Of a stretch of DNA of 9,151 nt, positions 190 through 9,151 are shown piece by piece (the stretch's first letter is position 1; each line of letters opens with the position of its first letter). The stretch lies in the NCBI GenBank assembly GCA_048939465.1, contig JBHLPL010000079.1, positions 1 through 9,151 of the forward strand, read 5' to 3'. The notes below the pieces were generated by a model that did no database searches, was not told the origin of the DNA, and saw nothing but the letters and a program-made list of their open reading frames with translations. The translations under genes and the position numbers were made by a program. The stretch comes from Promethearchaeota archaeon (lineage in GTDB: Archaea; Asgardarchaeota; Odinarchaeia; Odinarchaeales; JBHLKK01).

Positions 190-744
190 GTGGAGGGAGT
201 AATAACGTCTAAGAAACAAAAAAAGAAGAAAGAAACCGTAGAATCTCCATCTTCAGAGGAGCGTGCTATGGTAGAGCGACCTACTCGTGATACTGCTCTA
301 TGGAGAGGCTTTGACAACATTCTCGAGGATTTCAGAAGATCTCTCGACGATCTTATGTCCCCTTGGTTGCCAGTGCGAACTTTCTTGTCAAGGACAAGGA
401 CGGGTCTTCCCATCAGAGCACCTCTCGTCGATCTGATCGACAAGGGCGACAAGTATGTCGTCAGAGCTGAACTTCCGGGTTACAGCAAAGACATGATCGA
501 CGTGGAACTAAACAAAGATATGGTAAGCCTGAAAGCCGAAAAGAAAACAGAGGAAGAAGAAAAAACTACGGATTACCTACACAGAGAACGAACCTATACC
601 GCATGTCAACGAACAATAAACTTTCCCGAAGAAGTTGATCCGTCCAAAGCTGACGCAACAATGAAGGATGGGATCCTGGAGCTACGGATGCCCAAGAAAG
701 AACCTAAACCAGAGGAAAGGATGAGAAAAGTCGAACTAAAGTAA
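190..744 (+). CDS. hsp20: Small heat shock protein, Hsp20/alpha-crystallin family (start uncertain: GTG190, ACG205 or ATG268)
   Basis: Alpha-crystallin domain motifs PLVDLIDKGDKYVVRAELPG, YLHRER, RTINFPEEVDPSKADATMKDGILELRMPK and a C-terminal V-x-L (KVELK). ATG268 has an SD-like GAGGAG at 256-261 and gives 158 aa. Confidence 0.95.
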   Translation: MEGVITSKKQKKKKETVESPSSEERAMVERPTRDTALWRGFDNILEDFRRSLDDLMSPWLPVRTFLSRTRTGLPIRAPLVDLIDKGDKYVVRAELPGYSKDMIDVELNKDMVSLKAEKKTEEEEKTTDYLHRERTYTACQRTINFPEEVDPSKADATMKDGILELRMPKKEPKPEERMRKVELK

Positions 745-780
745 AGAGGAAGAATGAATACACTCCCCCATCATTACCCA

Positions 781-790
781 CCTTTTTTGG
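781..790 (+). terminator. Possible oligo-T terminator after hsp20
   Basis: CCTTTTTTGG (T6 at 783-788) lies about 40 nt after the hsp20 stop, in a pyrimidine-rich spacer. Confidence 0.4.
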
Positions 791-811
791 AAAAATGACA
801 ATGAGGGATTT

Positions 812-1516
812 GTGATAGAGGCTGATTTAGATTCAATTTTGACGATTCTGGAGAACCCTACGCGGAGAGAGATCATTAAAAGGCTGAGCGAAGAGCCAAA
901 TTATCCTCTCCGACTAGCTAAAGACTTAGGTCTTGGCCAGCAACTCGTAGCAAAACACTTGCGAATAATGGAAGACGTTGGACTGGTCACATCTTCGATT
1001 GAATCCAGTCCGCACGGACCCAAACGGAGAATATACGCTTTAAGTCAAAGCGTGTCCGTGACACTGGATGTCTCCACTCATCTTTTCAAGGCTAAAGTGG
1101 TCTCTTTCGATGCTAAACCTGAAAGACAGGAAGCCTCAGAATCCTCCGCTTCACTGATGGATAGAATGGATGAAATTTCAGAACGCTGGGGAGAACATCA
1201 TAGGATTAAACCGTTTACAACAATAATATCTGACATCGACGAGGAACTTGAGGCTCTTGAGAACGAACGATCCGTCCTCCTATACATCAGGAATTATGCC
1301 CTGAAAGAAGCCTCACATATAATTGAGACTTTTGAGAACTCAGATACAAGAAGAATACTTTATCACACCCTAGATGAACGTGATGTTACCATCAAAGGCA
1401 TTTCTGAATCACTGAATTTGAGAGAGGCTGTGGTGCGGCAGGTTCTGTCAAAACTTAAAAAGGATTTCAATATTGGGGTTGAAAACGTTGAAGAAGAAAC
1501 AAAGGAAAACACGTAA
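812..1516 (+). CDS. ArsR-like winged-HTH transcriptional regulator, Phr/HSR1 (COG1777)-type heat-shock repressor
   Basis: GTG start after GAGGGA (803-808). The N-terminal wHTH LENPTRREIIKRL..LAKDLGLGQQLVAKHLRIMEDVGLV..GPKRRIY resembles Pyrococcus Phr as I recall it (LGNETRRRIL..LSRELGVGQKAVLEHLRILEEAGLI..GRPRKYY). It has a central coiled coil and lies between hsp20 and grpE. Confidence 0.85.
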   Translation: MIEADLDSILTILENPTRREIIKRLSEEPNYPLRLAKDLGLGQQLVAKHLRIMEDVGLVTSSIESSPHGPKRRIYALSQSVSVTLDVSTHLFKAKVVSFDAKPERQEASESSASLMDRMDEISERWGEHHRIKPFTTIISDIDEELEALENERSVLLYIRNYALKEASHIIETFENSDTRRILYHTLDERDVTIKGISESLNLREAVVRQVLSKLKKDFNIGVENVEEETKENT

Positions 1517-1532
1517 AGAGAAACGAGTTCCT

Positions 1533-2057
1533 ATGGAAGAGACGACAGAAAAAGGAGAATTCGAAGTAAAGGTAAAGAAACTTGAAGGAGAATTGGAGGA
1601 AGAGCAAGAGAAAACCAGAGAATATTTAAACCGTCTAAAATATCTGCAGGCGGACTTCGAGAATTACAGAAAACGTGTGGAAAAGGAAGTTCAAGAAGCG
1701 ACCCAAAGAAGCAACGAGAAACTAATTGCAGACCTAATCGTCATCCTGGATGATCTCGAAAGCGCAATTTCCGCGGGAAAAACAGCAGAAAATAAAGACG
1801 CTCTAGTAGAGGGGATCGAAATGGTTTATGAGAAGTTGAATGGACTATTAGAAAAAGAAGGATTAGTAAGAATCGAGTGTGTTGGACGTCCCTTCGATCC
1901 AAACACACAGGAAGTTCTAGCTGAGGTACTCACAAAAAACCATCAACGGGGAACCGTTATTGAAGAAGCTAGAAAAGGCTTCATGTTCAAAGGCAAAGTC
2001 CTTAGACCAAGCATAGTGAGAATTGCTCGTGAAGATTCAGCAGGTGAAAAGAAATGA
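1533..2057 (+). CDS. grpE: Nucleotide exchange factor GrpE (likely start ATG1533, 174 aa; ORF track extends to TTG1473, which overlaps the regulator)
   Basis: Motifs [65 protein letters not shown]. The stop overlaps the dnaK start (ATGA, 2054-2057). Confidence 0.96.
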
Positions 2058-3922
2058 GTGAAACAAAAACTAGGGAAAGGATATTGGGAATAGATCTCGG
2101 AACAACCAATTCCGCAGCGGCCATCATGGAGGCCGGAAGGCCAGTGATAATACCGAGTGCGGAGGGTCCCACCATCGCAGGCAAGATGTTTCCGTCAGTA
2201 GTCGCGTTCACCAAGGATGATCAGTTGCTCGTCGGCGAACCTGCGCTCAGACAATCCGTCACAAACCCCGAGGGGACCATTTTCGAGATCAAGAGGAAGA
2301 TGGGAACAGACTACAAAGTGAACATACACGGCAAAGAGTATACTCCACAGCAAGTCTCAGCCTTCATTCTACAGAAGATAAAAAGAGATGCGGAAACGTT
2401 CCTCGGTGAGAAACTGAAGAAGTGCATAATCACTGTTCCCGCTCACTTTAACGACAACCAGAGGCAGGCGACCAAGGACGCTGGCGAGATCGCAGGGTTC
2501 GAGATTTCAAGGATCATAAACGAACCAACAGCTGCCTCCCTGGCGTATGGTCTTGACAAGCTGGAGAAAGAGATGAAGATCATGGTTTTCAGCTTCGGAG
2601 GGGGAACCAACGACACCACCATTATGGACTTCGGCGGCGGCGTCTTCGAGGTATTGGGCACAAGCGGCGATACACGACTTGGCGGAACCGACCTAGACAA
2701 CGCCGTTGTTCAGCACATCCTCAAAGAGTTTCGTGATCAGACGGGTATCGATCTCAGTGGCGACAAGATGGCCATGCGAAGGCTTAAGGAAGCGGCTGAG
2801 AAGGCGAAGATAGAGCTTTCCACATTGACGACCACTGACATCGATCTTCCCTTCATCGCCTCCGACGGCAGCGAGCCCAAACACCTACACACTACTCTGA
2901 ACAGAGCCAAGCTTGAGGAATTGACGCAACCGATCGTTCAAAAGGTCAAGGAACCGATAATGCGAACTCTCTCAGACGCCAAGCTCAAGCCAAAGGATGT
3001 AGACAAGATTATCCTCATCGGCGGTCAAACAAGAATGCCTTTAGTAAGAAAGTTCGTAGAAGATTTAATGGGTAAACCCGCTGAACGAGGGGTAGACCCC
3101 ATGGAATGCGTCGCAGACGGCGCTGCTATCCAAGGCGGAGTTTTAGCTGGGGAGGTAAAGGATCTCCTACTCCTAGATGTCACACCCCTATCGTTGGGCG
3201 TCGAAACTCTGGGCGGTGTCTTTACGAAGATTATGGAGAGAAATACAACAATACCAACTAAGAGAAGCCAGATATTCTCAACAGCCGCAGATTTCCAAAC
3301 TGCTGTGACCATCAACGTACTACAGGGAGAAAGATCCATGGCTGCCGACAACATTTCGTTAGGTATGTTTAACCTCACCGGGATACCTCCGGCACCTAGA
3401 GGTGTCCCCCAGATTGAGGTAACGTTCGACATCGATGCCGATGGCATATTAAATGTCTCGGCCAAGGATATGGCTACTGGAAAGGAGCAGAAAATCACCA
3501 TTACAGCCTCAACAAAACTCTCAGAGAAGGAAAAGGAACGTATGATGAAAGAGGCTGAAGAATTCGCCGAAGAGGACAAAAGAAGAAGGGAGGAGGCCGA
3601 AGTTCGCAACAACGCTGACTCACTAATCTTTACAGCTGAGAAAACAAAGAAGGATCTAGCCGACAAGCTCGGGAAGGAACAAGTAGAGAGGATAGATAAC
3701 GCAGTTGCCAAACTGAGAGAAACGCTGAGCAGTAAAGACACAGAGAAGATCAAGGCTAAGAACGAGGAGTTGGCGAAGGTTCTACAAGAAGTTGGAACGG
3801 TCGTTTACCAGCAAGCGGCAGCGGAGCGAGCGCAGCAAGGAAAAAGGGAGGAGGCTAAAGAGCGCAAAGAGAAAGTTGTTGATGCTGATTATGAAGAAGT
3901 CAAAGAAGAGAAGGAGGAATAG
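2054..3922 (+). CDS. dnaK: Hsp70 chaperone DnaK, 622 aa
   Basis: Motifs [55 protein letters not shown] (linker), [16 protein letters not shown] and C-terminal [10 protein letters not shown]-like AGGTGA at 2042-2047. Confidence 0.99.
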
Positions 3923-4005: not shown

Positions 4006-4091
4006 TGGTAGCCCGGAGGAGATTCGAACTCCTGTCAGCGGGTCCAAAGCCCGCTATGCTTAGCCATTATTGGCCACTACACCACCGGGCT
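4006..4091 (-). tRNA. tRNA-Gln(UUG) with encoded CCA and a 10-nt insert in the D-loop
   Basis: Minus strand reads AGCCCGG TG GTGT AGTGGCCAA[TAATGGCTAA] GCAT A GCGGG CTTTGGA CCCGC TGAC AGGAG TTCGAAT CTCCT CCGGGCT A CCA. Acceptor, anticodon and T stems pair fully. A1:U72 is typical of archaeal tRNA-Gln. Length is 86 nt, or 76 nt without the insert. Confidence 0.95.
4060..4069 (-). other. Putative non-canonical tRNA intron at position 21/22 (TAATGGCTAA)
   Basis: Exon GGCC (18-20a) pairs with insert GGCT as a 4-bp helix. Cutting 2 nt 3' of each helix strand removes exactly 10 nt and restores the D-loop AGTGGCCAA. Confidence 0.6.
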
Positions 4092-4172: not shown

Positions 4173-5918
4173 TTAGAGAGTCTCTTCTTTTAACCGGATT
4201 AGCAACTTATCCATTCTTGATGATGTCTTTTTTAGTTTGTTCTCAAGATCACGTCGAAGTTTTTGATATGCTGCCGCGCTTATACGGTGCCTACGGTATC
4301 TCGATTCCAGGTGTACTAGGGATGTTTTTACACTTTCTCTTTCCGCTTCCCTTATTTCCAGTTGTTTTACTGTGTGCGCGTATCTTCCTCCTGCTTTGCT
4401 TAGTTTGGGCCTCAGCTTGGCAATGTCTTTCTCTATACCTGCTATATTCTTCTTGTACGAAGCAGTCTGTTTCTGGTACTCCCGTTTCTTGATCTTCCGG
4501 CGTTGGAATCTCTCATCCAGCTTTCCCATTTCAAGCAATAGGGCGATTTTTTCTTCATACAAACTGCAGAATTGACGAAGAACGGGATACGCTACAGCAC
4601 GCTCCACGACAACCAATGGCTCAGCCTCTGGACGTAATTTCTTTGTCGTTACGTATGCTGCTGCAATCACACCTATAATTAGTGTAAACAACAACGGTCG
4701 AGTGAGTGCAGCTAACAGGGACGGATTATAGCTTATCTCTAGGCTGATTTGATGGAAGGAGGTAACATTGTACGATCCATAGGTGATTATTTCTTGTGCT
4801 TCTGACGAAACATTTGCAGGAGGATTTGTAGAGGTTGATGAGCCCCCAGGTGGCAATATTACAACAATTTCCTGATGCTGGATAGTCCAGTTGATGGTAT
4901 TCGGGATGATTGTTAGCCTCGGTGTTCCTGATTCTACGCTCTGAATTGTATCAATTGGCACTCTGTAGTTTACGTAGAACTTGTAGGTTTGATTGGTCCA
5001 GAGGACATACCTGAAGGTTATTTCAAGAATGTTCATATCAGAATCATTGAGCTCTATAATGGACATGGAAATACTGCCGAGATCATCAGAGACGGTTATG
5101 TCATTCGCGTCTTTGGAAACCGGTACCTCGTGAGTACTAACGGCATTGGAAGACATTCTAATGTTTTTCACGACCAGCTCATAGGTATCCTTGATATTGA
5201 CTATTCCCCACGTGCCTACGTTGACTTCACGTTGAGCCAAGATATATTTGATCAACGGTTTTTCCGTGTAAGTCCACTCTACGTATAAAGCGGTAAAATT
5301 CAGCGGTAGAATATCTGTCCCGTTGAATTCTCTTGGCGTCGGTTCAACTATCGAGCCATTTACAGGAGCCCTAATCGATACATTACAGAAAGTTGTGTTA
5401 TAGGGTGTGGTTGGATAGGCATATAGGTCTGCATAATACCTACCTTCCCAACGCGGAAGGACCATGTCACCAAAGACCAGAATAAGGTTATATGTGTAGT
5501 TTTCACCAGGAGCTACTGAATCAGAGAGTGTAATGGTCCAGGCTGTGTTGTTTTCATCAAGTGAGTAACTCGCAGAAATAGGAAGAGATGCACCAGTTCC
5601 ATTATATGCGGACATGTAATAGAGATAGCCGGTCAGATTACTTCTGAGCGTAGCAATTACAAAATCTGTAGAGCTAGATCCAGTATTGTTTACAACAAAA
5701 GTATCATTCACAGCTATCAGCCCGTACCCATTTATTTGCACCGTCCTGTTTACTATGTTATTGATTAGAAAATCTTGAGGTGGAGTGGGCTGCTGTGTTG
5801 TAGATGTGGGGCTCTGAATTAATGTAGCAATTGCGAATGTGAGTACTGCCAAGATAACCAGTGTCTTTAGTCTCTTCAATGGAACACCCCAGCATCTTTT
5901 TCTCAGGAGGGATTTCAT
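4173..5918 (-). CDS. Ribophorin I (Rpn1/Ost1)-like type I membrane glycoprotein, 581 aa
   Basis: Architecture: basic-then-hydrophobic signal region (about aa 15-34), beta-rich extracellular part with 17 N-x-S/T sequons (hand count), TM helix about aa 401-423, charged helical cytoplasmic tail. Motifs parallel eukaryotic ribophorin I as I recall it: LINNIVNRTV (vs LINEDVKRTV), REVNVGTWGIVNIKDTY (vs RVIEVSHWGNIAVEE), DDLGSIS (vs DEIGNVS), FRYVLWTNQTYKFYVNYRVP (vs [20 protein letters not shown]), IVVILPPG (vs KIILPEG). Confidence 0.75.
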   Translation of the reverse strand: MKSLLRKRCWGVPLKRLKTLVILAVLTFAIATLIQSPTSTTQQPTPPQDFLINNIVNRTVQINGYGLIAVNDTFVVNNTGSSSTDFVIATLRSNLTGYLYYMSAYNGTGASLPISASYSLDENNTAWTITLSDSVAPGENYTYNLILVFGDMVLPRWEGRYYADLYAYPTTPYNTTFCNVSIRAPVNGSIVEPTPREFNGTDILPLNFTALYVEWTYTEKPLIKYILAQREVNVGTWGIVNIKDTYELVVKNIRMSSNAVSTHEVPVSKDANDITVSDDLGSISMSIIELNDSDMNILEITFRYVLWTNQTYKFYVNYRVPIDTIQSVESGTPRLTIIPNTINWTIQHQEIVVILPPGGSSTSTNPPANVSSEAQEIITYGSYNVTSFHQISLEISYNPSLLAALTRPLLFTLIIGVIAAAYVTTKKLRPEAEPLVVVERAVAYPVLRQFCSLYEEKIALLLEMGKLDERFQRRKIKKREYQKQTASYKKNIAGIEKDIAKLRPKLSKAGGRYAHTVKQLEIREAERESVKTSLVHLESRYRRHRISAAAYQKLRRDLENKLKKTSSRMDKLLIRLKEETL

Positions 5919-6152: not shown

Positions 6153-6200
6153 GAGAAAAAACTAATATAGAAAACTCTTCCTTAGGAAGCAGTGGGTGGA
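6153..6200 (+). promoter_or_regulatory. Candidate gcvPA promoter and ribosome-binding site
   Basis: GAGAAAAAA (BRE-like) then CTAATATAG (6162-6170, TATA-like). The palindrome CTTCCT-T-AGGAAG is at 6177-6189 and SD-like GGTGGA at 6195-6200 lies 8 nt before ATG6209. Confidence 0.5.
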
Positions 6201-6208
6201 ATAATGCC

Positions 6209-7635
6209 ATGAATAATACAAATCCATTTATTCCAAATTCGTCGGAATCCATAAAGAAAGAAATGTTGGAAGAAGTTGGCCTTAGTAGCATTGAAGAGCT
6301 CTATAAGGATATCCCACCAGACCTGAGATTAGACCGTAAATTAGATCTTCCTGGTCCTCTTTCTGAACACGATGTTTATCGAGCAGTAAAAGAGATTCTT
6401 GGTAGGAACTGCACTACAGAAGATATGCCAATATTCCTCGGAGCGGGCGTATATCCCCATTACATTCCTGCGGTTGTCAAATCTATGACTAGTCGGGGAG
6501 AATTCTTAACGGCTTATACCCCATATGACTGATCTAGTGATCATTCAGGGGAAATCAAGCAGAGATATCCCAAGGAATACTTCAGGCGTTCTTTGAGTAC
6601 CAGAGCCTGATGGCAGAGCTCGCAGATATCGAAGTAGTAAATGCTTCAATGTACGATTGGGCCTCAGCTTTGGGAGAAGCTGCATTGATGTCAAAGCGAT
6701 TAACCAAACGTAACACTTTCTTAGTACCCCACATAATTCATCCAGAGAGACTGGCTACATTGAGAACTTATGCCACGCCGGTCGGGATAGATTTAGTGGA
6801 AGTTGGGTTTAGCAGTGAATCAGGTCAGTTGGACATCGAAGATCTGAAGAGCAAAATCTCTGAGGACGTAGCTGGAGTATACATAGAAAATCCCTCATAT
6901 CTTGGTTTTTTGGAAACGCAAGTGGATGAAATAGCAGAACTCACGCATGATAATAAAAGCCTCCTAATAGCAGGCGTGGATCCCACATCTCTTGGAGTCA
7001 TAAGACCACCAGGAGATTACGATGCCGATATAATCATTGGGGAGGGGCAACCACTGGGGAGTCCGATGAATTTTGGAGGGCCGCTTCTGGGCATATTTGG
7101 GTGTAAGGACGATAGACGAATGATTAGGCATCTGCCGGGACGCTTAATTGGCATGACCACTACCGAAGACGGTAAGAAACGGGGGTTTACTATGACGCTA
7201 GGTTCAAGGGAACAGCACATCAGAAGGGAAAAAGCAACATCAAACATCTGTACGAACGAAGCTCTGGGTTGCGTGGCGGCCGCGGTTTACTTAACTTTGC
7301 TCGGTCCAGTAGGCATGCAAAAACTTGGAGAGATTATTCTTCACAATTCACATTATGCTATGAAAAAAATAGGGGAAATTACCGGAGTCGAAACACCTTT
7401 GTTTGAAGCGCCTCACTTTAAGGAATTTACAGTGAATGTCGACGAAACCGGAGTCGGCATAAGTGATATTCAGAAGAGTCTTATTGATTTAGGTGTTCAT
7501 GGAGGAAAAATAATCAAAAAGGAGTTTCCTGAATTCGGGGAGACCTCGCTCTTCTGTGTTACGGAAATACATACTCGAGAAGATATCCTTAAACTGGTCG
7601 ATGCATTGAGCGAAATTGTTGGAGGAGGAACTTGA
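6209..7635 (+). CDS. gcvPA: Glycine cleavage system P protein subunit 1, intron-containing: join(6209..6524,6554..7635), 465 aa after splicing
   Basis: Exon 1 has PFIPN, FLGAGVYPHYIP and SRGEFLTAYTP. Exon 2 has (Y)QAEISQGILQAFFEYQSLMAEL, NASMYD, GEGQPLG, FGGP, LPGRLIG and REQHIRREKATSNICTN. The joined length is 316+1082=1398 nt, a multiple of 3, with one terminal stop. Confidence 0.93.
6525..6553 (+). other. 29-nt BHB-type mRNA intron in gcvPA (ATGACTGATCTAGTGATCATTCAGGGGAA)
   Basis: Central helix CCCC(6519-6522):GGGG(6548-6551); 3-nt bulges AT|A (6523-6525) and AA|A (6552-6554); inner hairpin 6526-6547 with 8 Watson-Crick pairs, one C/T mismatch and a TAGT loop; outer pairs A6518:T6555 and GCTT(6512-6515):AAGC(6557-6560). 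It contains the in-frame TGA (6530-6532) and shifts the frame. Confidence 0.9.
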
Positions 7636-9151
7636 ATGATTAAGGAGTTTCATCAGGCAAAATGGAATGAACCTGTCATTTTTGAATTAGGACATAGAGG
7701 GAAAATCGGGCATCGACTTCGAGATGTGGACAAAATAATAAGAGAGGAAGTGGGAGACGTTCTGAGTAAGATTCCGTCAAACATGAGGAGAAAGAAGTCT
7801 CCTAATCTTCCGGAGATTTCTGAGGTGGAGGCAGTAAGGCATTTCACGCGTCTTTCACAGATGAATTGGGGGGTAGATTGTGGTATATATCCTCTTGGAA
7901 GCTGCACTATGAAGTATAGTCCAAAGATCAACGAAGTTATTGCCAATTTGGGTCATGTAGCAAATATCCATCCGTACCAAGATGAAAGAACAATTCAAGG
8001 TGCTTTGGAGATCATGTATAAGCTGGAGAGCTGGTTTGCGGAGATAACTGGAACACATCGTGTAACACTACAGCCTGCCGCTGGAGCTCACGGTGAATTC
8101 ACCGGCATACAGATCATTCGTGCATATCATGAACTTAACAACCAGCTTGATCAAAGGACTGAAATCGTAGTGCCAGACTCAGCCCATGGCACTAATCCGG
8201 CCAGCGCAGTGATGGGGGGATTTGACTGCGTTGTTGTTCCAACAAATGAGAACGGACTGGTCGATATAGACGCTTTGCAAAATGCAGTCTCGGAAAATAC
8301 CGCAGGACTTATGCTAACCAATCCAAATACACTAGGGCTTTTCGAAAGGGAGATAGGTGATATTTCAAAAATCCTACACAGTGCAGGAGCCCTGCTATAC
8401 TATGACGGAGCCAATCTAAATGCCATTCTGGGGAAAGTTCGTCCAGGAGACATGGGCTTTGATATCGTTCACGTTAACGTTCATAAAACGTTTTCGACAC
8501 CTCATGGGGGAGGCGGACCTGGTGCGGGTCCCTTGGGAGTTTCCAGCGAGCTTGAGAAGTTCCTGCCCGTCCCCCTTGTAGAGTTTGATGGTGAAAAGTA
8601 CTTTTTTGATTACGACCGTCCTCACTCCATCGGGAAGGTGAAGGGATTCTATGGCAACTTCGCAGTTATCGTAAGAGCCTTCGCTTACATCCTATCAATG
8701 GGACCGACGGGATTAGAAGAAGTGGCAGAGAATTCTGTCTTAAACGCCAACTACATAGCTCGGAAATTGCTAAAAACAGAGGGATATGAACTACCATATG
8801 CCCCTAAGACTCCAAGAAAACATGAGGTAGTTTTCAGTACCACACCGCTCTTGCAAAAGACTCACATTTCGGCATTGAATGTCTCCAAAAGACTGCTCGA
8901 TTATGGTGTTCACGCTCCCACAAATTACTTTCCATTGATTGTACACGAGGCTTTGATGATAGAACCTACTGAAACTGAACCAGAGGAAGAGTTGAATCGC
9001 TTTGTAGATGCACTAAAGAAGATTTCTGAAGAGGCTTTTACAAATCCAGAACTCGTGCTAAGTGCTCCCCATAATACAAGCGTTTCAAAACTAGATGAAG
9101 TAAAGGCAGCTCATCCAAAGACTATGCGCCTATCTTGGCGAATGAAAGAGA
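7636..9151 (+). CDS. gcvPB: Glycine cleavage system P protein subunit 2 (3'-partial, open to the window end; missing from the ORF track because it has no stop)
   Basis: ATG directly after the gcvPA TGA, preceded by GGAGGAGG. My manual translation gives 505 uninterrupted codons with EVEAVRHFTRLS, YPLGSCTMKYSPK, LQPAAGAHGE, PDSAHGTNPASA, YYDGANLNA, the PLP-lysine motif HKTFSTPHGGGGPG (Lys codon 8485-8487) and LMIEPTETE. Confidence 0.97.
   Translation, partial: MIKEFHQAKWNEPVIFELGHRGKIGHRLRDVDKIIREEVGDVLSKIPSNMRRKKSPNLPEISEVEAVRHFTRLSQMNWGVDCGIYPLGSCTMKYSPKINEVIANLGHVANIHPYQDERTIQGALEIMYKLESWFAEITGTHRVTLQPAAGAHGEFTGIQIIRAYHELNNQLDQRTEIVVPDSAHGTNPASAVMGGFDCVVVPTNENGLVDIDALQNAVSENTAGLMLTNPNTLGLFEREIGDISKILHSAGALLYYDGANLNAILGKVRPGDMGFDIVHVNVHKTFSTPHGGGGPGAGPLGVSSELEKFLPVPLVEFDGEKYFFDYDRPHSIGKVKGFYGNFAVIVRAFAYILSMGPTGLEEVAENSVLNANYIARKLLKTEGYELPYAPKTPRKHEVVFSTTPLLQKTHISALNVSKRLLDYGVHAPTNYFPLIVHEALMIEPTETEPEEELNRFVDALKKISEEAFTNPELVLSAPHNTSVSKLDEVKAAHPKTMRLSWRMKE

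What the first reader, a model, noticed from the sequence alone, without database searches (positions are those of the whole stretch)
6512..6560. Canonical bulge-helix-bulge intron inside a protein-coding gene (gcvPA)
Seen: the apparent 107-aa and 341-aa ORFs are two parts of one gcvPA gene separated by 29 extra nt inside the conserved YTPY|QAEISQG motif. The insert folds into full BHB geometry: 4-bp helix CCCC:GGGG, two 3-nt bulges on opposite strands, an inner hairpin TGA-c-TGATC-tagt-GATCA-t-TCA and an outer GCTT:AAGC helix. Established: archaeal EndA cuts after the second nucleotide of each bulge, here after 6524 and 6553. Those cuts remove exactly 6525-6553, one of the three possible placements that restore CCA-TAT-CAA. 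The structure-based and homology-based boundaries therefore agree independently. BHB introns are well known in archaeal tRNA and rRNA, but in mRNA the classic example is crenarchaeal cbf5. I do not know of a gcvPA case but cannot check the literature. Inference: an intron spliced by EndA/RtcB in a central metabolic gene, which standard annotation would call a frameshifted pseudogene.
Basis: partly seen in the sequence, partly recalled or inferred. Interest (0 to 1): 0.95.

Follow-up and report, generated by a model that had tools for sequence, protein, structure and literature searches.

The report
tRNA-type intron inside Asgard gcvPA gene
A glycine-cleavage enzyme gene (gcvPA) of an Odinarchaeia (Asgard) archaeon is interrupted by a 29-base insert shaped like the introns that archaea cut out of tRNAs; every related Odinarchaeia genome that has the gene assembled keeps it with compensating base changes, so it is very probably a spliced mRNA intron, a kind published so far only for the cbf5 gene.

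Summary
Removing window 6525-6553 (29 nt) joins the 107-aa and 359-aa reading frames into one 465-aa GcvPA. Pfam GDC-P positions 4-100 and 101-428 abut at the junction.

The window is a whole contig of an Odinarchaeia MAG. All five Odinarchaeia species genomes with gcvPA assembled, plus one metagenome contig, carry an insert at the same codon. It is 29 nt in four and 30 nt, in frame with a TAG, in two. All six fold the same way, and 7 of 9 inner-helix pairs show compensatory changes. The cut rule (after the second bulge base) gives CCA-UAU-CAA in every one.

No gcvPA listed for the rest of the phylum (400 genomes searched) shows the break. Independent DNA assemblies from three studies hold the insert without indels. 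A roughly 92%-identical strain differs inside the insert only in the hairpin loop, and its exon changes are mostly synonymous.

The genome has two EndA paralogues, RtcB, gcvPB, gcvT and gcvH. I also confirmed breaks of the same kind in kae1 (7 of 7 Odinarchaeia genomes) and gatA; citG and an aminotransferase fold and rejoin alike.

Splicing itself is not shown, because no RNA data were available. This scan noted the same gcvPA intron before in another Odinarchaeia genome. In print, only cbf5 and one Haloferax 5' UTR are known.

The parts
6209..6524 (+). gcvPA exon 1 (codons 1-105 plus the first base of Tyr106)
   Evidence: ORF from ATG 6209; Pfam GDC-P profile 4-100
6525..6553 (+). 29-nt BHB intron; it carries the in-frame TGA at 6530-6532 and shifts the frame
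   Evidence: Its removal restores YTPY|QAEISQG. The same site is occupied in 5 other Odinarchaeia sequences by 29 or 30 nt.
6554..7635 (+). gcvPA exon 2 (last two bases of Tyr106 to the stop codon)
   Evidence: The frame from 6556 is open to 7635; Pfam GDC-P 101-428. There is no start codon between the in-frame stop at 6538-6540 and ATG 6610.
6519..6522 (+). central 4-bp helix, 5' strand (CCCC, from the exon codons ACC CCA); pairs with 6548-6551
   Evidence: MFE fold. Invariant C:G x4 in 6 sequences. ACC CCA in 6/6 intron-bearers, against ACC in 3 of 23 intron-less relatives.
6548..6551 (+). central helix, 3' strand (GGGG, inside the intron)
6523..6525 (+). 5' bulge AUA; predicted cut after 6524
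   Evidence: Unpaired in the MFE fold of all six sequences; cut rule from PMC2738675
6552..6554 (+). 3' bulge AAA (AGA or AUA in relatives); predicted cut after 6553
6526..6547 (+). inner helix h' and loop: stems 6526-6534 and 6539-6547 with one C/U mismatch, loop UAGU at 6535-6538
   Evidence: 7 of 9 pairs show changes on both sides across 6 sequences. The strain variant differs only at loop positions 6535, 6536 and 6538.
6512..6518 (+). outer (exon) helix h, 5' side: GCUU 6512-6515 pairs with AAGC 6557-6560; A6518 can pair with U6555
   Evidence: It is 6 bp (CCGCUU:AAGCGG) in most Odinarchaeum relatives.
6555..6560 (+). outer helix h, 3' side
7636..9150 (+). gcvPB (context): it starts directly after the gcvPA stop and runs off the contig end
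   Evidence: Pfam GcvP2_C, GDC-P and Aminotran_5

Best explanation
gcvPA of this Odinarchaeia archaeon carries a 29-nt archaeal-type (bulge-helix-bulge) intron in its coding sequence. In the pre-mRNA, the exon bases CCCC (from the Thr-Pro codons ACC CCA) pair with GGGG at the 3' end of the insert. This 4-bp helix is flanked by two 3-nt bulges (AUA, AAA), an intron hairpin on the inner side and an exon-exon helix on the outer side. The tRNA-splicing endonuclease EndA, here probably a heteromeric enzyme made from two paralogues, would cut after the second base of each bulge (after 6524 and after 6553). RtcB would then join the 2',3'-cyclic phosphate and 5'-OH ends. The result is ...CCA UAU CAA..., an mRNA for a full 465-aa GcvPA that works with the adjacent GcvPB. 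Shown: the structure, the exact junction, conservation with covariation across Odinarchaeia, purifying selection on both exons, presence of the enzymes, and presence of the insert in independent DNA assemblies. Inferred: that cleavage and ligation happen in the cell, and that EndA and RtcB are the enzymes responsible.
For: (1) Junction. Removing 6525-6553 gives a continuous 465-aa GcvPA, and Pfam GDC-P coordinates abut at 100|101. (2) Fold. The MFE structure is the BHB. The five other insert-bearing sequences fold to the same architecture on their own, with z from -1.4 to -4.3. (3) Distribution. All 5 Odinarchaeia species genomes with gcvPA assembled have the insert at the same codon. No gcvPA listed in a 400-genome scan of the phylum shows the short open frame, apart from two cut by contig ends; 209 weaker matches were not listed. 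The 23 nearest intron-less loci were checked by sequence. (4) Covariation. 90.8% of cells pair, 7 of 9 inner-helix pairs change on both sides, 0 of 500 shuffles reach this, and slid controls give 36-51% pairing. The own hairpin shares no sequence with those of the Odinarchaeum genus. (5) Length. The insert is 29 nt in four sequences and 30 nt (in frame, beginning with a TAG) in G006 and metagenome contig L042. The exons are therefore sometimes out of frame and sometimes in frame, yet the cut rule always yields CCA-UAU-CAA. This fits excision and rules out ribosomal frameshifting. (6) The 18 codons 6556-6609 have no usable start codon upstream in their frame. They are still 15/18 identical in protein to the Odinarchaeum genus, with several third-position differences between the DNAs. 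(7) Synonymous sites of the exon half of the helix are fixed: ACC CCA in 6/6, against ACC in 3/23 intron-less relatives. (8) Population data. A roughly 92%-identical strain in other samples has 18 synonymous against 7 non-synonymous codon changes (12:1 in exon 2), and its changes inside the insert fall only in the hairpin loop. (9) It is not an assembly error. Contigs from three studies span 6491-6568 with no indel, including a 13-kb contig. (10) Machinery and pathway. One EndA paralogue is closest to the 186-aa tRNA-splicing endonuclease chain 3p1z_B (E 1.5e-44), which from memory is the A. pernix catalytic alpha subunit. The second paralogue, RtcB x2, gcvT, gcvH x2 and gcvPB are all present. 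gcvPA is single-copy. (11) The same genome and class hold more interrupted genes of this kind: kae1 is split at the same profile position in 7/7 genomes, and gatA in 6/6 with a second break only in this genus.
Against: No RNA evidence exists for a spliced junction or a circular intron. No EndA cleavage assay has been done. The outer helix is relaxed: one A-U pair, then an internal loop. This is not the strict hBHBh' motif and would need a broad-specificity enzyme. The central and outer helices never vary, so they give no covariation evidence of their own. The six sequences come from one class and are not independent. Ab initio BHB-plus-ORF scanning gives no excess over a phase-shifted control, so the fold alone would not be convincing.
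Confidence: 0.85

Rival explanations
1. Split gene. The cell makes two polypeptides, a 107-aa N fragment ending ...YTPYD* and a 341-aa C fragment started at ATG 6610, and they assemble into an active GcvPA without any RNA splicing.
For: Both ORFs are intact. A Met codon at the position of 6610 is conserved in the relatives.
Against: The 18 codons 6556-6609 upstream of that Met are 15/18 identical in protein to the other genus and have no start codon in their frame. That would be unexplained if they were untranslated. The insert's RNA structure is maintained by compensatory changes, which a mere gene split does not require. The break cuts the conserved YTPYQAE motif.
Confidence: 0.05
2. Translational bypassing. 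The ribosome hops over the 29-30 nt, as in phage T4 gene 60, with no change to the mRNA.
For: A stop codon lies just after the take-off region (TGA 6530-6532; TAG in relatives), at the foot of a hairpin. This superficially resembles gene 60 (own knowledge). Like splicing, it tolerates both 29 and 30 nt.
Against: There are no matched take-off and landing codons. The codon before CAA is AAU here, GAU in four relatives and UAU in one, while the take-off codon would be UAU or CCA. The conserved features are exactly those of an EndA substrate: a 4-bp helix and two 3-nt bulges whose second/third-base cuts give the right junction in 6/6. Many other genes in the genome carry the same kind of motif.
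Confidence: 0.04
3. Decaying pseudogene. An insertion frameshifted gcvPA and the gene is on its way out.
For: Standard gene calling sees two fragments.
Against: The same insert is kept in two families whose proteins are only about 60% identical, and both exons are intact in all of them. The strain comparison gives 18 synonymous against 7 non-synonymous changes. There is no second copy. gcvPB, gcvT and gcvH are intact.
Confidence: 0.02
4. The insert is excised from the RNA, but by some machinery other than EndA/RtcB.
For: No enzyme assay has been done. The outer helix is non-canonical.
Against: The geometry and the cut positions match the EndA rule exactly in 6/6. At 29 nt the insert is far too short for a group I or group II intron (own knowledge). 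EndA and RtcB are present.
Confidence: 0.03
5. Assembly or sequencing artefact.
For: The source is a fragmented MAG of 152 contigs.
Against: Independent contigs from three studies, including a divergent strain, hold the insert with no indel. Five other genomes or contigs have it as well.
Confidence: 0.01

Closest known systems
cbf5 pre-mRNA intron of Crenarchaeota (Desulfurococcales, Sulfolobales; Watanabe 2002, Yoshinari 2006, Yokobori 2009 = PMC2738675)
   Same: A short BHB-type intron inside a protein-coding sequence. It is cut between the 2nd and 3rd bulge residues, often has a relaxed ('unconventional') BHB, occurs in organisms with hetero-oligomeric EndA, and was annotated as a frameshift.
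   Different: The gene differs (gcvPA, a metabolic enzyme) and so does the phylum (Asgard, Odinarchaeia). cbf5 itself is uninterrupted across the TruB_N domain here. Spliced cbf5 mRNA was reported experimentally (first examples, PMC2738675); this case rests on comparative evidence only.
Archaeal tRNA and rRNA BHB introns (Marck and Grosjean 2003; PMC4090602)
   Same: Same motif and topology. The exon strand of the 4-bp helix pairs with the 3' part of the intron, as anticodon bases do in pre-tRNA. The length lies within the published 11-129 nt range of tRNA introns. The presumed enzymes are the same.
   Different: The host is an mRNA, so splicing decides the reading frame. The exon half of the motif must also encode Thr-Pro-Tyr and Gln-Ala-Glu.
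BHB intron in the 5' UTR of Haloferax volcanii HVO_1309 (PMC7714728)
   Same: An mRNA processed by EndA, shown there in vivo by circRNA-seq and in vitro.
   Different: That intron lies in the untranslated leader and does not interrupt a coding sequence.
Unconventional splicing of HAC1/XBP1 mRNA in eukaryotes (IRE1 plus tRNA ligase or RtcB); own knowledge, mentioned in PMC13149111
   Same: Spliceosome-independent removal of a short insert from a coding mRNA by a protein endonuclease plus a tRNA-type ligase, changing the reading frame.
   Different: The nuclease is different (IRE1, which cuts stem-loops rather than a BHB). That splicing is regulated by stress and is not known to be evolutionarily related.
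Phage T4 gene 60 translational bypass (own knowledge)
   Same: A short untranslated gap in a coding sequence, with a stop codon and a hairpin at its start.
   Different: It needs matched take-off and landing codons, which are absent here. Here the BHB geometry is the conserved feature.

Membership tests
Archaeal BHB (EndA-type) intron | 4-bp central helix flanked by two 3-nt bulges on opposite strands | tested here: met
   CCCC 6519-22 pairs with GGGG 6548-51; the bulges are 6523-25 and 6552-54. This is the MFE fold in all six sequences.
Archaeal BHB (EndA-type) intron | Inner helix h' closing the intron side | tested here: met
   A helix of 8-9 bp, with 7 of 9 pairs showing compensatory changes.
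Archaeal BHB (EndA-type) intron | Outer helix h directly closing the exon side (strict hBHBh') | tested here: inconclusive
   Only one A:U pair (6518:6555) abuts the 3' bulge. A 2x1 internal loop follows, and then a 4-bp helix (6 bp in most relatives). This is a relaxed motif.
Archaeal BHB (EndA-type) intron | Cuts between the 2nd and 3rd bulge residues give the functional mature sequence | tested here: met
   The cuts give CCA-UAU-CAA and a seamless GcvPA in 6/6 sequences. The rule is taken from PMC2738675.
Archaeal BHB (EndA-type) intron | Splicing endonuclease and RNA ligase encoded by the host | tested here: met
   Two tRNA_int_endo genes and two RtcB genes.
Archaeal BHB (EndA-type) intron | Excision and exon ligation observed in RNA, or cleavage by EndA in vitro | not testable with these tools
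   No RNA run was listed for this sequence.
cbf5 mRNA intron family | Located in cbf5 at the codon of the catalytic Asp | tested here: not met
   The host gene is gcvPA. cbf5 (TruB_N 1-149) is uninterrupted in this genome. It is the same kind of element but not a member of that family.
GcvPA (glycine dehydrogenase subunit 1, Pfam GDC-P) | Full-length match to the family profile | tested here: met
   The two exons together cover profile positions 4-428 of 429. The protein is 68% identical to intact Asgard GcvPA.

The most novel reading that the evidence does not exclude
The gcvPA intron is one visible piece of a class-wide mRNA-splicing habit. Odinarchaeia (Asgard) would routinely interrupt essential and metabolic protein genes (gcvPA, kae1, gatA, citG, an aminotransferase and probably many more) with EndA/RtcB-spliced mini-introns. 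Some would be ancient (kae1 and gcvPA in both families), others recently gained (the second gatA intron, found only in this genus). Correct expression of a sizeable part of the proteome would then depend on the tRNA-splicing machinery, in the archaeal phylum closest to eukaryotes.
Probability: 0.6. Interest if true: 0.9.

Novelty: new member of a known kind. Interest (0 to 1): 0.78.

Why it matters
Papers up to 2025 name cbf5 as the only archaeal coding sequence with a BHB intron, plus one Haloferax 5' UTR (PMC7714728, PMC12397907 reference list, PMC2738675). A conserved intron in a central metabolic gene of Asgard archaea, together with further examples in the same genomes, would show that protein-gene splicing by the tRNA machinery is not a one-gene curiosity. 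It has three practical consequences. Such genes are mis-annotated as frameshifted pseudogenes, so metabolic reconstructions of Odinarchaeia would wrongly drop the glycine cleavage system. It provides a set of natural mRNA substrates for studying the specificity of heteromeric EndA. It also makes questions about intron gain and about coupling of transcription, splicing and translation in the closest prokaryotic relatives of eukaryotes directly testable.

Tried and rejected
RNA evidence: no RNA holder was listed for the stretch or the gene. The one raw-read DNA run tried (X21) laid no reads, so it gave no test.

Ab initio census: a genome-wide scan asked for BHB geometry whose excision merges two open frames. 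It gave 8 strict hits (including gcvPA and citG) and 87-90 relaxed hits. A control with the 3' cut shifted by 1 or 2 nt gave equal counts (87 against 87 and 97). This scan therefore cannot count introns, and the fold alone is weak evidence.

Metagenome pattern scan: 7 hits, only one of which (L042) is gcvPA. The rest are chance matches outside any ORF.

Mobile-element idea: blastn of the intron with its flanks against the own genome found no second copy.

gcvPA phylogeny: the backbone is unresolved. The own sequence groups neither with the Odinarchaeum genus nor with the 68%-identical intron-less family f15. After leaving out the long-branch rows L024 and L026-L029, an AU test does not reject one clade of intron-bearers (p = 0.18). 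A single gain is therefore allowed but not shown.

The two other genomes of the own genus lack an assembled gcvPA 5' part, so they give no information.

Literature searches for an Asgard or Odinarchaeia mRNA intron found nothing. The 2026 preprint on Asgard tRNA introns does not treat mRNA.

Considered and rejected: ribosomal frameshifting (29-nt and 30-nt variants coexist) and group I/II introns or an intein (too short, and not a multiple of 3).

Full report
OBSERVATION

The window is a complete 9,151-bp contig (C150) of a 1.96-Mb MAG in 152 contigs, 91% complete. At 6209-6532 an ORF of 107 aa ends ...LTAYTPYD*. From 6556 a second frame reads QAEISQGILQAF... to the stop at 7633-7635.

Pfam's GDC-P model matches the first piece at profile positions 4-100 and the second at 101-428. 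The two pieces are therefore adjacent parts of one glycine dehydrogenase subunit 1 (GcvPA). Deleting 6525-6553 (29 nt) gives one 465-aa protein containing ...TAYTPYQAEISQG.... Two other placements, 6526-6554 and 6527-6555, give the same product.

- an outer helix GCUU(6512-15):AAGC(6557-60);
- a central helix CCCC(6519-22):GGGG(6548-51);
- unpaired AUA (6523-25);
- an inner hairpin at 6526-47.

The energy is -16.9 kcal/mol, z = -2.5. The motif is canonical for the central helix, the 5' bulge and the inner helix, but relaxed in the outer helix.

WHOSE GENOME

A pattern search of species-representative genomes returned records titled Candidatus Odinarchaeia / Odinarchaeota. The window's class holds only seven species genomes, in two families. 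The window also encodes a Ribophorin-I-like protein. The stretch occurs in sediment and mangrove metagenomes from several studies.

COMPARATIVE EVIDENCE

Five of the seven Odinarchaeia genomes have gcvPA assembled. All five break at exactly this codon. In a 400-genome scan of the phylum, no other listed gcvPA shows the short open frame, apart from two cut by contig ends; 209 weaker matches were not listed. The 23 nearest intron-less loci were checked by sequence. A metagenome contig (L042) adds a sixth sequence.

The insert is 29 nt in four sequences. In G006 and L042 it is 30 nt, in frame, and begins with a TAG stop. Each of the six folds on its own into the same architecture.

I counted pairs for the common structure on the alignment:
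- 90.8% of cells pair, against 36-51% when the partners are slid.
- 7 of the 9 inner-helix pairs show changes on both sides.
- 0 of 500 shuffles reach the observed values.
- The central helix and the outer helix are invariant.

The window's hairpin (UGACUGAUC...) shares no sequence with those of the Odinarchaeum genus (GCCGC..., GCUGUGUUU...). Cutting after the second base of each bulge is the rule published for cbf5 (PMC2738675). Applied here, it gives CCA-UAU-CAA in all six.

The exon half of the central helix needs the synonymous choices ACC CCA. These are found in 6/6 intron-bearers, while only 3 of 23 intron-less relatives use ACC for that Thr.

BOTH EXONS ARE TRANSLATED

In the exon-2 frame the nearest upstream stop is at 6538-6540. 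No ATG, GTG or TTG occurs before 6610. Yet the 18 codons 6556-6609 are 15/18 identical in protein to the other genus, and several of the DNA differences fall at third codon positions.

Contigs from other samples carry a strain about 92% identical. Against it, 18 changed codons are synonymous and 7 are not (12:1 in exon 2). Inside the insert only the hairpin-loop positions 6535, 6536 and 6538 differ.

THE INSERT IS NOT AN ARTEFACT

Contigs from three studies cross 6491-6568 with no indel and no alternative joint. One of them is a 13-kb contig with 4 differences in 501 bases.

MACHINERY AND PATHWAY

- The genome encodes two tRNA_int_endo proteins. One is closest to the 186-aa tRNA-splicing endonuclease chain 3p1z_B (E 1.5e-44); from memory this is the catalytic alpha subunit of the Aeropyrum pernix enzyme. 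The other is closest to 1a79, with weak matches to the 'uncharacterized protein' partner chains of 3p1z, 3ajv and 2zyz.
- This fits a heteromeric enzyme, the type linked to relaxed substrates and to cbf5 splicing (PMC2738675, PMC5829648).
- Two RtcB genes are present.
- gcvPA is single-copy. gcvPB follows it directly. gcvT and two gcvH genes are intact.

CONTEXT: OTHER INTERRUPTED GENES

First-stage notes of this scan list many BHB-interrupted protein genes in this genome. I tested some of them.

- gatA appears as three Amidase pieces with abutting profile coordinates (1-105, 104-153, 155-445), separated by 26 and 32 nt.
- kae1 appears as two TsaD pieces (12-62, 64-264). A 25-nt insert folds into a clean hBHBh' motif, and its removal restores GPGLGPCLR.
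- citG (19 nt) and a class-III aminotransferase (30 nt) fold and rejoin in the same way.
- The AdoHcyase gene is also broken.

Across the class, kae1 is split at the same profile position in 7/7 genomes; in one of them the insert is in frame with stops. gatA is split at 153|154 in 6/6, again with one in-frame variant. The second gatA break occurs only in the window's genus. The gcvPA intron therefore belongs to a class-wide set, with both old and lineage-specific members.

My own ab initio scan could not count these introns. Its phase-shifted control gave as many hits as the true phase.

MECHANISM

Best explanation (0.85): EndA cuts the pre-mRNA after 6524 and 6553, and RtcB ligates the exons.

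- Shown: geometry, exact junction, covariation, selection on both exons, enzymes present.
- Inferred: the reaction itself.

Rivals:
- A split gene giving two polypeptides (0.05). It fails to explain the conserved, start-less codons 6556-6609 and the maintained RNA structure.
- Translational bypass (0.04). There are no matched take-off and landing codons, and what is conserved is an EndA substrate.
- A pseudogene (0.02).
- Excision by another nuclease (0.03).
- An artefact (0.01).
- Frameshifting is excluded, because 29-nt and 30-nt versions coexist.

COMPARISON AND NOVELTY

This is the same kind of element as the crenarchaeal cbf5 intron. It sits in another gene and another phylum, and cbf5 itself is uninterrupted across TruB_N here. 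Papers from 2009 to 2025 name cbf5 as the only coding-sequence case, plus a Haloferax 5' UTR. Searches for Asgard or Odinarchaeia mRNA introns found nothing. I therefore class it as a new member of a known kind.

An earlier follow-up in this scan (e1-2929216) reported the same gcvPA intron in another Odinarchaeia genome. The present window extends it to a second family and adds the 29/30-nt length variants, the population data and the independent-assembly check.

A gcvPA tree is unresolved, and an AU test does not reject a single origin (p = 0.18; long-branch rows L024 and L026-L029 were left out).

Noticed in passing
window 4006-4091 (-): ARAGORN calls this 86-nt tRNA gene Ala(AGC), and Rfam matches only part of it. 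The anticodon arm reads GCGGG-CUUUGGA-CCCGC. After deleting 8-19 nt from the D-arm region, ARAGORN calls tRNA-Gln(UUG) in 181 trial deletions. It is probably a tRNA-Gln with a small non-canonical intron in the D arm.
   Followed up: partly
G000 C69:30130-30154 (-); also G001-G006: kae1/tsaD is interrupted by a 25-nt clean hBHBh' insert whose removal restores GPGLGPCLR. The same profile break (62/63|64) occurs in all 7 Odinarchaeia genomes; in G004 the insert is in frame with two TAA stops.
   Followed up: yes
G000 C77:43519-44908 (-): gatA is in three pieces (Amidase 1-105, 104-153, 155-445). The 153|154 break is shared by all 6 Odinarchaeia genomes that have gatA. The 105|104 break is found only in the window's genus (G000, G002), which suggests a recent intron gain. 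My simple BHB finder did not resolve these two junctions.
   Followed up: partly
G000 C62:14791-14809 (-) and C4:11883-11912 (-): A 19-nt insert in citG (removal restores GWPKPGNVH) and a 30-nt in-frame insert in a class-III aminotransferase (removal restores VDVDGNKYID). Both have BHB folds.
   Followed up: partly
G000 C118:315-951 (-): The AdoHcyase (ahcY) match is broken after profile position 141, and the next piece contains stops. This fits the first-stage note of several mini-introns there.
   Followed up: partly
G000 C31:2961-5708 (-): One of the two RtcB genes lies in a 973-aa open frame, with the RtcB profile split into 1-57 and 45-426 about 1.4 kb apart. It looks like an intein-containing RtcB.
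   Followed up: no
window 4173-5918 (-): A 581-aa ORF matches Ribophorin I (oligosaccharyltransferase subunit OST1) over nearly the whole profile. This is a eukaryote-like protein known from Asgard archaea (own knowledge).
   Followed up: no
window 190-3922 (+): A heat-shock cluster: Hsp20, an ArsR-type HTH regulator, GrpE and DnaK.
   Followed up: no
window 6200-7000: The stretch is held by sediment and mangrove metagenomes from several studies. This Odinarchaeia family therefore seems not to be confined to hot springs. The link between Odinarchaeum and hot springs is my own knowledge; habitat was not examined further.
   Followed up: no
L003/L004 (G022, G032) against L005 (G003): The window's GcvPA exon 2 is 68% identical to that of an intron-less Asgard family (f15), but only about 60% identical to the Odinarchaeum genus, which shares the intron. 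The tree is unresolved.
   Followed up: partly
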